This document shows, one piece after another, positions 57,621 through 60,006 of a stretch of 64,000 bases of DNA. A program made the translations under genes and the position numbers. The number at the start of each line of letters is the position of its first letter. Position 1 is the stretch's first letter. The stretch comes from Escherichia coli (GTDB taxonomy: Bacteria; Pseudomonadota; Gammaproteobacteria; Enterobacterales; Enterobacteriaceae). The stretch is from assembly GCF_048403405.1 (NCBI RefSeq), contig NZ_CP183129.1. One strand, 5' to 3'. The notes beneath the pieces are model-generated. The model was not told the origin of the DNA, ran no database searches, and saw nothing but the letters and a program-made list of their open reading frames with translations.

Positions 57621-59171
57621 ATGCCCACTTCTCATGAAAATGCACTGCAACAACGTTGCCAGCAAATTGTCACCAGCCCGGTGCTTAGCCCGGAGCAGAA
57701 GCGCCATTTTCTGGCGCTGGAAGCAGAAAACAATCTGCCTTATCCGCAGCTTCCTGCCGAAGCCCGCCACGCGCTGGATGAGGGTGTAATCTGCGATATG
57801 CTTGAAGGTCATGCGCCGTACAAACCGCGCTATGTCTTACCCGATTACGCCCGTTTTCTGGCGAACGGTTCCGAATGGCTGGAGCTGGAAGGCGCGAAAG
57901 ATCTTGATGACGCACTCTCTCTGCTGACCATTCTTTACCACCACGTACCGTCGGTCACATCGATGCCGGTCTACCTGGGGCAACTGGATGCGTTGTTGCA
58001 ACCGTATGTTAGAATTCTAACACAAGACGAGATCGATATTCGAATAAAACGTTTCTGGCGTTACCTCGACAGAACCCTGCCAGACGCCTTTATGCACGCC
58101 AATATCGGCCCGTCTGATTCGCCCATTACCCGCGCGATCTTACGTGCAGACGCAGAGTTGAAGCAGGTTTCACCGAACCTGACCTTTATCTACGATCCTG
58201 AAATCACCCCTGATGACCTACTGCTGGAAGTGGCGAAGAACATCTGTGAATGTAGCAAACCGCACATCGCCAACGGTCCGGTGCATGATAAAATTTTCAC
58301 AAAAGGGGGCTACGGGATTGTGAGCTGTTACAACTCACTGCCGCTGGCGGGTGGTGGCAGCACGCTGGTACGCCTTAACCTGAAAGCCATTGCCGAGCGC
58401 AGCGAATCGCTGGATGACTTCTTTGCGCGCACTCTACCGCACTACTGCCAGCAGCAGATCGCCATCATCGATGCGCGGTGTGAATTCCTCTATCAACAAT
58501 CACACTTCTTTGAGAATAGCTTCCTGGTGAAAGAAGGGCTGATTAACCCTGAACGTTTTGTGCCAATGTTTGGCATGTATGGGCTGGCGGAAGCGGTTAA
58601 CTTGCTGTGTGAGAAAGAAGGGATTGCCGCGCGCTACGGTAAAGAAGCCGCCGCAAATGAAGTGGGTTATCGCATCAGCGCGCAACTGGCGGAGTTTGTC
58701 GCCAATACCCCCGTGAAATATGGCTGGCAAAAACGCGCCATGTTACACGCACAGTCGGGGATAAGTTCCGATATCGGCACCACGCCGGGCGCACGTTTGC
58801 CGTATGGCGATGAGCCAGATCCGATCACCCATCTGCAAACTGTCGCCCCGCATCATGCTTATTATTATTCCGGCATCAGCGACATTCTGACACTCGACGA
58901 AACCATCAAACGAAATCCGCAGGCGCTGGTACAGCTTTGCCTCGGTGCCTTTAAAGCCGGAATGCGTGAATTTACCGCCAATGTCAGCGGTAACGATCTG
59001 GTTCGCGTTACTGGTTATATGGTGCGTTTGTCGGATCTGGAAAAATATCGTGCCGAAGGCTCACGTACCAACACCACCTGGCTGGGCGAAGAGGCCGCAC
59101 GCAACACTCGTATTCTGGAACGCCAGCCGCGCGTGATAAGCCATGAACAGCAGATGCGCTTTAGTCAGTAA
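57621..59171 (+). CDS. yjjI: YjjI glycine-radical-enzyme-like protein of unknown substrate
   Basis: 516-aa ORF followed by an overlapping radical-SAM activase gene. Confidence 0.85.
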
Positions 59172-60006
59172 GATTATCCCCTTCTCCTGCGTTGACGGGC
59201 CAGGCAGTCGTCTGGCTCTGTTTTTGCAGGGCTGCAATCTGCGCTGCAAAAACTGTCACAATCCGTGGACGATGGGACGTTGCAATGACTGCGGGGAGTG
59301 CGTGCCACAGTGTCCGCATCAGGCGTTGCAGATTGTTGACGGCAAAGTGGTGTGGAACGCTGTGGTCTGCGAGCAATGTGATACCTGCCTGAAGATGTGT
59401 CCGCAACATGCCACGCCAATGGCGCAGTCCATGAGCGTGGATGAGATGCTTAGCCATATCCGCAAAGCAGTGCTGTTTATCGAAGGGATAACGGTAAGCG
59501 GCGGCGAAGCCACGACCCAGCTACCGTTTGTGGTGGCGCTGTTTACTGCTATCAAAAATGATCCGCAACTGTGCCATCTCACCTGTCTGGTGGACAGTAA
59601 CGGTATGTTGAGCGAAACCGGCTGGGAAAAATTGCTCCCGGTGTGCGACGGCGCGATGCTCGATCTCAAAGCGTGGGGTAGCGAATGTCATCAACAGTTA
59701 ACCGGACGCGATAATCAGCAGATTAAGCGCAGCATCTATTTGCTGGCAGAGCGCGGCAAGCTGGCGGAACTGCGTTTGCTGGTAATCCCTGGCCAGGTGG
59801 ATTATTTGCAACACATCGAAGAACTGGCGGCGTTTATCAAGGGACTTGGCGATGTTCCGGTACGCCTGAACGCGTTTCATGCCCACGGCGTGTATGGCGA
59901 AGCGCAAAGCTGGCCGAGCGCCACACCGGAAGATGTTGAGCAGTTGGCTGATGCGTTAAAGGTGCGCGGGGTGAGCCGGTTGATATTTCCGGCGCTGTAT
60001 TTGTGA
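59143..60006 (+). CDS. yjjW: glycyl-radical enzyme activating protein (radical SAM, extra 4Fe-4S ferredoxin domain)
   Basis: 287 aa; CxxxCxxC-type radical-SAM cluster motif plus ferredoxin-like CxxCxxCxxxCP motifs; start overlaps yjjI by 29 nt. Confidence 0.85.

What the first reader, a model, noticed from the sequence alone, without database searches (positions are those of the whole stretch)
57621..60006. yjjI-yjjW glycyl-radical-type enzyme pair of unknown function
A 516-aa YjjI protein is followed, with a 29-nt overlap indicating translational coupling, by a radical-SAM activase that carries an extra ferredoxin-like cluster domain. The pair is conserved next to the deo operon but, to my knowledge, its substrate is not established. 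It is a conserved rather than accessory unknown.
Basis: partly seen in the sequence, partly recalled or inferred. Interest (0 to 1): 0.35.

Follow-up and report, generated by a model that had tools for sequence, protein, structure and literature searches.

The report
Orphan E. coli glycyl-radical enzyme pair yjjI-yjjW
This is the E. coli yjjI-yjjW operon, an already catalogued oxygen-sensitive radical enzyme and its activating partner whose substrate is still unknown; gene neighbourhoods in several bacterial groups suggest it works in the anaerobic breakdown of nucleosides.

Summary
yjjI (57621-59171, 516 aa) and yjjW (59143-60006, 287 aa) overlap by 29 nt, exactly as RefSeq annotates them, and the locus is in 5423 of 5426 complete E. 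coli genomes. YjjI has the glycyl-radical motif (RVTGY, G465), one family-invariant cysteine (C236) and a confident predicted fold that matches glycyl-radical enzymes, closest to the class III ribonucleotide reductase core. It lacks the ATP cone, the Zn(Cys)4 site and the second catalytic cysteine of that reductase, the Cys-Cys of pyruvate formate-lyase and the GCxE of the dehydratases. YjjW is a radical-SAM activase with CX3CX2C and two ferredoxin-type cluster motifs. Published data show direct FNR activation. No searched paper gives a substrate. New here: the deo adjacency holds only in Enterobacteriaceae and Hafnia, but nucleoside-catabolism or transport genes also flank yjjI-yjjW in Orbaceae, Haemophilus and one distant homologue. 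This makes a nucleoside-derived substrate the best, unproven, hypothesis. Two deo operators and the deoP1 promoter lie inside the yjjI coding sequence. The feature is already known and of moderate interest.

The parts
57621..59171 (+). yjjI coding sequence, 516 aa: YjjI-family glycyl-radical enzyme
59143..60006 (+). yjjW coding sequence, 287 aa: dedicated radical-SAM activase
   Evidence: ORF; TIGR04041 400 bits, Radical_SAM and Fer4 families; PDB sequence match to pyruvate formate-lyase activase E 4e-19
59143..59171 (+). 29-nt overlap of the yjjI 3' end with the yjjW start; no strong Shine-Dalgarno sequence upstream of the yjjW ATG, so translational coupling is likely
   Evidence: codons 508-513 show third-position conservation of 0.89-0.95 against a gene mean of 0.68
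59004..59018 (+). codons for R462-V-T-G465-Y466, the glycyl-radical motif; G465 is the predicted radical site
   Evidence: R462 and G465 nearly invariant in 28 homologues; aligned to RVSGY of pyruvate formate-lyase and RITGY of NrdD; tip of the beta-hairpin 460-469 in the model
58320..58334 (+). codons for V234-S-C236-Y-N238, the cysteine loop; C236 is the predicted thiyl-radical cysteine
   Evidence: C236 is the only invariant Cys; aligns with PFL C419 and with the Cys of the YbiW G-C-I-E motif; tip of the hairpin 231-241
59233..59256 (+). codons for YjjW C31-X3-C35-X2-C38, the radical-SAM [4Fe-4S] cluster motif
   Evidence: PF04055 and Fer4_12
59281..59400 (+). codons for the YjjW ferredoxin-like insert with two CX2CX2CX3C motifs (residues 47-57 and 76-86), predicted to hold two auxiliary [4Fe-4S] clusters
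   Evidence: Fer4_9, Fer4_7 and Fer4 Pfam hits at residues 44-90
57547..57560 (+). putative FNR site CGCATCAGGATCAA; only the promoter-proximal half-site is good
   Evidence: GGATCAA (57554-57560) is invariant in 10 genera while its flanks diverge. It lies about 41 bp upstream of the inferred start site. The published FNR ChIP peak maps about 26-32 bp away. Inferred, not shown.
57582..57587 (+). putative -10 hexamer TACAAT of the yjjI promoter
   Evidence: T, A, A and T invariant in 10 genera; spacing to the FNR half-site fits a class II promoter; no mapped start site (PMC3688515 lists 'TSS not known')
57609..57613 (+). Shine-Dalgarno sequence AAGGA of yjjI
   Evidence: read directly from the sequence

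Best explanation
yjjI-yjjW is a two-gene, anaerobically induced, FNR-activated operon. It encodes a genuine but unusually small glycyl-radical enzyme (YjjI) and its dedicated radical-SAM activase (YjjW).

Inferred mechanism, by analogy with characterised glycyl-radical enzymes:
- Reduced YjjW cleaves S-adenosylmethionine at its CX3CX2C cluster. Electrons reach that cluster through two ferredoxin-type clusters.
- YjjW abstracts a hydrogen from G465 of YjjI.
- In turnover the glycyl radical passes to C236 on the opposing finger loop inside the barrel.
- The C236 thiyl radical abstracts a hydrogen atom from a small polar substrate.

YjjI has a single conserved cysteine and no counterpart of the second cysteine of the reductase. 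The chemistry is therefore most likely redox-neutral (an elimination, dehydration or lyase-type rearrangement) and not a reduction.

The substrate is unknown. The most likely class is a nucleoside, or a pentose or pentose phosphate released during anaerobic nucleoside catabolism.

My confidence in each layer: glycyl-radical enzyme plus activase about 0.95; anaerobic FNR-controlled operon about 0.85; nucleoside-linked substrate about 0.4; redox-neutral chemistry about 0.5.
For: Shown here:
- Family membership.
- RVTGY motif, a single invariant Cys236, and the YjjW cluster motifs.
- Confident model (pLDDT 92.9, pTM 0.92).
- Profile alignments that place C236 on PFL C419 and on the YbiW catalytic Cys.
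- hhalign to E. coli NrdD at 92.9% probability, E 3.7e-7.
- A YjjW homologue beside yjjI in all 85 loci compared.

Regulation:
- FNR ChIP peak plus FNR-dependent anaerobic induction (PMC3688515).
- FNR-activated class in PMC2634741.
- 4.3-fold anaerobic induction in Yersinia intermedia (PMC3792023).
- A conserved ATCAA half-site and -10 hexamer with class II spacing.

Nucleoside link:
- Divergent deoCABD in Enterobacteriaceae and Hafnia.
- Same-strand clusters in Orbaceae: add, 5'-nucleotidase, cdd, pyrimidine nucleoside phosphorylase, 5'-nucleotidase, yjjI, yjjW in Gilliamella. The Orbus cluster lacks add and begins instead with a purine nucleoside phosphorylase and a nucleoside:H+ symporter.
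- yjjI, the radical-SAM gene and a NupC/NupG-family transporter fall together in a 3.1-kb region of Haemophilus influenzae (PMC5609409).
- In a 36%-identical homologue: RihC-like nucleoside hydrolase, ADP-ribosylglycohydrolase-family gene, PfkB (ribokinase-like) kinase, DeoD-type phosphorylase, sulfatase-family gene, YjjI, YjjW, MFS transporter, BMP-type ABC transporter, all on one strand.

The residues invariant across the family are strongly polar and cationic (R70, K213, R251, R286, R392, R501, H159, H376, D123, D150, D384, E305). That fits an anionic sugar-type ligand.
Against: - No biochemical or genetic test exists, and nothing here identifies the substrate.
- About 12 of roughly 16 sampled lineages show no nucleoside genes nearby: Proteus, Providencia, Aliivibrio, Photobacterium, Vibrio, a 'Xenophilus' isolate, actinobacterial-type, archaeal and other contigs.
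- The deo adjacency is inherited within one clade and may be plain synteny.
- A published biclustering study groups yjjI with narG and proposes nitrogen metabolism instead (PMC3228777).
- The FNR site has only one good half-site, and a consensus scan found no canonical site near the gene.
- The Cys-loop register in the NrdD hhalign is locally unreliable.
- I could not inspect model coordinates, so the active-site geometry is inferred from sequence and secondary structure only.
Confidence: 0.55

Rival explanations
1. The enzyme has nothing to do with nucleosides. The deo adjacency is inherited synteny, the other clusters are coincidence, and YjjI acts on some other small polar anaerobic metabolite. 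One candidate role is linked to nitrate or formate respiration, as the biclustering study proposed.
For: Most sampled lineages have unrelated neighbours. Proteus keeps the radA-serB-ytjB-yjjI synteny without deo. yjjI is co-expressed with narG and other respiratory genes (PMC3228777; PMC6643234).
Against: Four separate gene arrangements in four lineages bring different nucleoside genes next to yjjI-yjjW. Three of them are same-strand, tightly spaced clusters, one around a 36%-identical homologue. By my rough estimate the chance expectation is a few percent per lineage. Co-expression with nar genes is explained by shared FNR control alone.
Confidence: 0.33
2. YjjI is a ribonucleotide (or ribonucleoside or ribose-phosphate) reductase. 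On this view it is a stripped-down class III enzyme that makes deoxyribose compounds with formate or a thiol as reductant.
Against: YjjI has no ATP cone and no C-terminal four-cysteine zinc site. Its only invariant Cys is C236. NrdD C175 has no Cys counterpart; YjjI has PRY-VLPDY there. The activase is of the PFL-AE / ferredoxin-insert type and scores far below the NrdG model cut-offs. From general knowledge, E. coli nrdD mutants fail to grow under strict anaerobiosis although they carry yjjI.
Confidence: 0.06
3. YjjI is a pyruvate formate-lyase-type keto-acid C-C lyase that makes formate.
For: It has the glycyl-radical fold. EcoGene called the Haemophilus orthologue a pflB homologue (PMC3228777). 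It is co-expressed with formate-linked respiration genes.
Confidence: 0.04
4. YjjI is a non-catalytic spare radical domain or a decayed remnant, comparable to GrcA.
For: It is much shorter (516 aa) than most glycyl-radical enzymes (about 750-870 aa).
Against: It forms a complete barrel with both finger loops. It has many invariant polar residues. It is retained intact in 5422 of 5426 E. coli genomes and in at least 591 species. It always comes with its own activase.
Confidence: 0.02

Closest known systems
[quoted passage not shown] PDB 9d3x, 4u3e, 8p23; E. coli NrdD
   Different: YjjI has no ATP cone, no Zn(Cys)4 site and no second catalytic cysteine. It is about 200 residues shorter, with 12-17% identity. 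Its activase is the larger ferredoxin-insert type and not NrdG. YjjI is therefore similar in fold but is not a member of this family.
PFL-like glycyl-radical enzymes: PflB, PflD, YbiW, CutC, IslA, HypD, glycerol and propanediol dehydratases, HPAD
   Different: YjjI lacks about 250-350 residues of outer helices. The Cys loop reads V-S-C-Y-N, which is neither the C-C of PFL nor the G-C-x-E of the eliminases. It does not reach the PFL-like or Gly_radical Pfam models.
YjjI family itself (Pfam PF11230, formerly DUF3029; TIGR04040) with YjjW (TIGR04041)
   Same: This locus is the founding E. coli member. Scores are far above the curated cut-offs and the RefSeq names are identical.
   Different: Nothing differs. 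The family is defined by sequence only and its models are typed 'hypothetical equivalog', meaning no function is assigned.

Membership tests
Glycyl-radical enzyme superfamily | C-terminal glycine-radical motif RVxG[FWY] | tested here: met
   R462-V-T-G465-Y466; R462 and G465 conserved in at least 90% of 28 homologues; aligned to RVSGY of PFL and RITGY of NrdD
Glycyl-radical enzyme superfamily | Conserved catalytic cysteine on the opposing finger loop | tested here: met
   C236 is invariant and is the only conserved Cys; aligns with PFL C419 and the YbiW catalytic Cys; sits at the tip of the hairpin 231-241
Glycyl-radical enzyme superfamily | Ten-stranded alpha/beta barrel fold | tested here: met
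Glycyl-radical enzyme superfamily | Dedicated radical-SAM activase with CX3CX2C, usually encoded alongside | tested here: met
   yjjW overlaps yjjI; C31-X3-C35-X2-C38; TIGR04041 400 bits; a YjjW homologue is adjacent in all 85 loci compared
Glycyl-radical enzyme superfamily | Observable stable glycyl radical (EPR doublet; oxygen-dependent chain cleavage at the glycine) | not testable with these tools
   Needs anaerobic biochemistry. No report was found in the literature searched.
Class III ribonucleotide reductase (NrdD) | Second active-site cysteine (E. coli C175 / T4 C79) for formate-dependent reduction | tested here: not met
   hhalign places NrdD F-N-C175-M-L opposite YjjI P-R-Y-(gap)-V-L; no second conserved Cys anywhere in the family. 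The NrdD residue numbers come from my own knowledge.
Class III ribonucleotide reductase (NrdD) | C-terminal Zn(Cys)4 site next to the glycine loop | tested here: not met
   YjjI cysteines are at 13, 58, 209, 211, 236, 276, 287, 330 and 440. None lies after residue 440 and there are no CxxC pairs.
Class III ribonucleotide reductase (NrdD) | N-terminal ATP-cone / allosteric apparatus, and a small NrdG-type activase | tested here: not met
   YjjI has no ATP-cone Pfam hit. YjjW scores 63 and 46 bits against NrdG models with cut-offs of 131 and 126.
Pyruvate formate-lyase type | Two adjacent catalytic cysteines (C418-C419) | tested here: not met
   S235-C236 in YjjI; S235 is invariant in 12 diverse homologues
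Glycyl-radical eliminases / dehydratases (GDH, PD, CutC, HypD, IslA) | G-C-x-E cysteine-loop motif with a general-base glutamate | tested here: not met
   The loop is S-C-Y-N; N238 is nearly invariant where YbiW has Glu. An invariant E305 elsewhere could take that role, but this is untested.
YjjI family (PF11230 / TIGR04040) and YjjW family (TIGR04041) | Score above the curated whole-protein cut-off | tested here: met
   730.7 bits against 23; 785.6 against 498.3; 399.7 against 250.2

The most novel reading that the evidence does not exclude
YjjI catalyses a so far undescribed radical step of anaerobic nucleoside catabolism. It would use its reductase-like core without a reductant. One possibility is a 2'-dehydration or C-N lyase reaction on a ribonucleoside. 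Another is a dehydration of ribose 1- or 5-phosphate to a deoxy-keto pentose. Either would open a new fermentative route for the pentose moiety that runs alongside the deo pathway. In Enterobacteriaceae its expression would additionally be tied to the deo operon, because the DeoR operators O1 and OE and the promoter deoP1 sit inside its coding sequence.
Probability: 0.25. Interest if true: 0.7.

Novelty: already known. Interest (0 to 1): 0.4.

Why it matters
YjjI is one of the few E. coli K-12 enzymes whose catalytic class is clear but whose reaction is unknown, and it appears to be the last E. coli glycyl-radical enzyme without an assigned reaction.

- It is core to E. coli and is found in at least 591 species.
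- It is the smallest type of full glycyl-radical barrel, and it sits structurally between anaerobic ribonucleotide reductase and the PFL-like enzymes. Its reaction would therefore inform how this radical chemistry diversified.
- The recurring nucleoside-gene neighbourhoods found here narrow an open-ended substrate search to a short list that can be tested directly: nucleosides, nucleotides, and ribose or deoxyribose phosphates.
- Nucleosides are abundant in the anoxic gut, so a new anaerobic route for them would matter for the physiology of enteric bacteria.

Tried and rejected
- Single-sequence search of YjjI against PDB sequences found nothing meaningful (best E 1.1). Only the family profile and the fold search connected it to known structures.
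- The first attempt to find related loci with the 28-sequence alignment failed because no stretch was conserved enough.
- The rerun of that search kept only the 80 closest loci, almost all Enterobacterales. Distant neighbourhoods had to be sampled one protein at a time, and several contigs were too short to be informative (L002, L088, L095, L099).
- A consensus FNR scan found no site with two or fewer mismatches at the yjjI promoter. The one nearby hit, 57442-57455, is the deoP2 CRP site.
- The generic sigma-70 and terminator scan found nothing useful in the promoter region. The promoter proposal rests on the ten-genus footprint.
- The hhalign register around the Cys loop puts C236 opposite a non-Cys residue after a six-residue gap. 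I treat that segment as misaligned, because the PFL and YbiW profile alignments and the hairpin position agree on C236.
- I could not retrieve a Pasteurellaceae sequence to check the Haemophilus neighbourhood myself. A search seeded with the Gilliamella protein listed none in its top 120, so that lineage rests on PMC5609409.
- My recollection that HI0518 and HI0519 are deoD and nupC was not verified, and I do not use it as evidence.
- I considered reading the deo adjacency as strong functional evidence and rejected that because of the Proteus synteny.
- Six literature searches found no functional study of YjjI or YjjW.
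Full report
**1. The observation**

The window is Escherichia coli chromosome. The stretch 57300-60100 is 100% identical to several complete genomes, and 5423 of 5426 complete E. coli genomes hold a match.

The ORF table gives yjjI at 57621-59171 (516 aa) and yjjW at 59143-60006 (287 aa), both on the + strand. They share 29 nt. RefSeq annotates the same coordinates as 'YjjI family glycine radical enzyme' and 'YjjW family glycine radical enzyme activase'. K-12 still calls b4380 a 'DUF3029 domain-containing protein'.

Family scores leave no doubt that these are real genes: PF11230 at E 8e-220, TIGR04040 at 786 bits and TIGR04041 at 400 bits.

**2. What YjjI is**

- **Radical motif.** YjjI has R462-V-T-G465-Y466.
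- **Conservation.** I aligned 28 homologues down to 27% identity, taken from a library search that found only 536 family representatives at 50% clustering. The invariant residues are G83, G120, D123, C236, E305 and G418. R462 and G465 are conserved in at least 90%. C236 is the only conserved cysteine out of nine.
- **Fold.** AlphaFold2 on a 93-sequence alignment gave pLDDT 92.9 and pTM 0.92. Beta-hairpins at 231-241 and 460-469 carry C236 and G465 at their tips.
- **Sequence link to known structures.** The single sequence finds nothing in the PDB. The family profile aligns S235-C236 with PFL C418-C419 and with the G-C-I-E of YbiW, and aligns the glycine motif with those of PFL and NrdD. hhalign against E. 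coli NrdD (fetched) gives 92.9% probability and E 3.7e-7 over NrdD residues 144-623.

YjjI is therefore a complete but minimal glycyl-radical barrel, nearest to the reductase core.

**3. What YjjI is not**

- It lacks an ATP cone.
- It lacks a C-terminal four-cysteine site.
- It has no counterpart of NrdD C175.
- It lacks the Cys-Cys pair of PFL and the G-C-x-E of the eliminases. Its loop reads V-S-C-Y-N.

With one cysteine and no reductase apparatus, redox-neutral chemistry is more likely than reduction. This is an inference.

**4. YjjW**

- It has C31-X3-C35-X2-C38 and two CX2CX2CX3C motifs.
- It matches the pyruvate formate-lyase activase structures at E 4e-19.
- It matches the general glycyl-radical activase family that carries a ferredoxin insert.
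- The insert is not universal in the family. The activases next to an actinobacterial-type and an archaeal homologue are 247-251 aa and show no ferredoxin Pfam hit.
- A YjjW homologue lies beside yjjI in all 85 loci compared. The gene overlap is 26-29 nt in Proteus, Providencia, Gilliamella and Orbus, and 4 nt in two distant homologues.

**5. Regulation**

- Myers et al. list yjjI among operons that are directly FNR-bound and anaerobically induced, with the transcription start unknown (PMC3688515).
- Their peak coordinate, 4,615,181, lies about 93 bp upstream of the ATG. That conversion uses the K-12 coordinates and the 1,977-bp offset between genome versions, which I take from memory.
- Aligning the upstream region of ten genera leaves only two invariant blocks near the gene: GGATCAA (57554-57560) and TAcAnT (57582-57587). 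Their spacing is that of a class II FNR promoter.
- Other papers agree on anaerobic and FNR control.

**6. Literature on function**

Six full-text searches found no experimental function. The only functional proposal is a biclustering inference of 'nitrogen metabolism', based on co-expression with narG (PMC3228777). Shared FNR control would explain that co-expression without any link to nitrogen metabolism.

**7. Genomic context**

The deoCAB genes are adjacent only in Enterobacteriaceae and Hafnia. Proteus keeps the flanking radA-serB-ytjB synteny without deo, so that adjacency alone is weak evidence.

Other nucleoside genes nevertheless appear independently in three further lineages:

| Lineage | Genes flanking yjjI-yjjW | Calls |
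|---|---|---|
| Gilliamella (12 loci) | adenosine deaminase, 5'-nucleotidase, cytidine deaminase, pyrimidine nucleoside phosphorylase, 5'-nucleotidase, then yjjI-yjjW, all on one strand | 34, 35, 38 |
| Orbus | no adenosine deaminase; a purine nucleoside phosphorylase and a nucleoside:H+ symporter, then 5'-nucleotidase, cytidine deaminase, pyrimidine nucleoside phosphorylase and 5'-nucleotidase; gaps of 16-192 bp | 53 |
| Haemophilus influenzae | yjjI, the radical-SAM gene and a NupC/NupG-family transporter lie in one 3.1-kb region | PMC5609409, |
| Metagenomic homologue, 36% identical | RihC-like nucleoside hydrolase, ADP-ribosylglycohydrolase-family gene, PfkB (ribokinase-like) kinase, DeoD-type phosphorylase (278 bits, cut-off 230), sulfatase-family gene, YjjI, YjjW, MFS transporter, BMP-type ABC transporter | 64, 66 |

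About twelve other sampled lineages show nothing comparable. Four of roughly sixteen lineages is well above the few percent per lineage that I would expect by chance. That estimate is rough and the sample is small.

Together with the reductase-like fold and the polar, cationic set of invariant residues, this makes a nucleoside-derived substrate the leading hypothesis, at about 0.4.

**8. Embedded deo control elements**

- The DeoR operator consensus occurs at 57408-57423 (O2, one mismatch) and at 58007-58022 (O1, perfect), 599 bp apart. This matches the published deoP1-deoP2 spacing (PMC3334521).
- A third operator-like sequence lies at 58286-58301, 279 bp beyond O1. That is the distance I recall for OE.
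- O1, OE and the extended -10 of deoP1 (TGtTAGAAT on the minus strand) lie inside the yjjI coding sequence.
- O1 is present in every locus with adjacent deo genes and absent from all 26 without them.
- Across 28 Enterobacteriaceae genes, third-codon-position conservation averages 0.68. It reaches 0.98-0.99 over O1, 0.92-0.95 just beyond it, and 0.98 over OE, whose 16-nt window is the best of 1533. It is 0.89-0.95 at the yjjW start overlap.
- Transcripts from deoP1 therefore run antisense through the first ~390 nt of yjjI and across its promoter, and a DeoR loop would enclose that promoter. Whether this couples yjjI expression to deoxynucleoside availability is untested.

**9. Verdict**

The feature is a known, annotated family and a classic E. 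coli gene of unknown function, so its novelty is 'already known'. Interest is moderate (0.4): the enzyme class is certain, the reaction is unknown, and the context evidence gathered here makes the question directly testable.

Noticed in passing
window 58007-58022 (O1), 58286-58301 (OE), 57408-57423 (O2); deoP1 -10 at 58014-58019 on the minus strand: The DeoR operators O1 and OE and the promoter deoP1 of the divergent deo operon lie inside the yjjI coding sequence, at codons 129-134 and 222-227. O1 is found in all loci with adjacent deo genes and in none without. O1, OE and the deoP1 upstream region are the strongest peaks of synonymous-site conservation in the gene (0.92-0.99 against a mean of 0.68). 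deoP1 transcripts are antisense to the first ~390 nt of yjjI.
   Followed up: yes
window 57441-57456, 57494-57509 and 57944-57959: Two CRP-type sites of deoP2 lie in the yjjI-deoC intergenic region. The first is the reverse complement of TGTGATGTATATCGAA, the motif reported at a CRP ChIP-seq peak in ETEC. A second ChIP-seq peak motif, CGTACCGTCGGTCACA, lies inside yjjI (PMC4287617). The only FNR-consensus hit near yjjI is in fact the first CRP site.
   Followed up: partly
window 60007-60045; L098 (K-12) 262-680: A single REP-type palindrome (GCCGGATG...CCGGCCTAC) fills the 33-bp gap between the convergent genes yjjW and yjjV and runs into the yjjV stop. K-12 has a 419-bp gap at the same place, holding about four tandem ~100-bp copies of a REP/BIME-like unit. 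The array is therefore variable between strains.
   Followed up: partly
L094 195-11720; L091 2172-12389; L076 1058-10374: Same-strand nucleoside-utilisation clusters end in or contain yjjI-yjjW. The L094 cluster also holds a sulfatase-family gene and an ADP-ribosylglycohydrolase-family gene of unclear role, arranged somewhat like the E. coli yegTUV genes (that comparison is from memory). The organism carrying L094 was not identified.
   Followed up: partly
L003 9557-10309; L096 9621-10364: The activases next to an actinobacterial-type and an archaeal YjjI homologue are only 247-251 aa, and their precomputed Pfam hits show no ferredoxin domain. The two-cluster insert of E. coli YjjW is therefore not a constant feature of the pair.
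   Followed up: no
P0004: A 574-aa database protein from a 2.9-kb contig carries both the YjjI-like and the DeoC/LacD aldolase Pfam domains. The two genes are divergent in E. coli, so this is probably a gene-calling or assembly artefact and not a real fusion.
   Followed up: no
L099 1264-2805: The gene recorded for homologue P0146 does not translate to that protein with table 11, and the contig comes from a very fragmented assembly. This suggests an organism with a different genetic code, for example a mollicute symbiont. An ABC permease gene of the BPD_transp_2 family lies just upstream, and no activase lies downstream.
   Followed up: no
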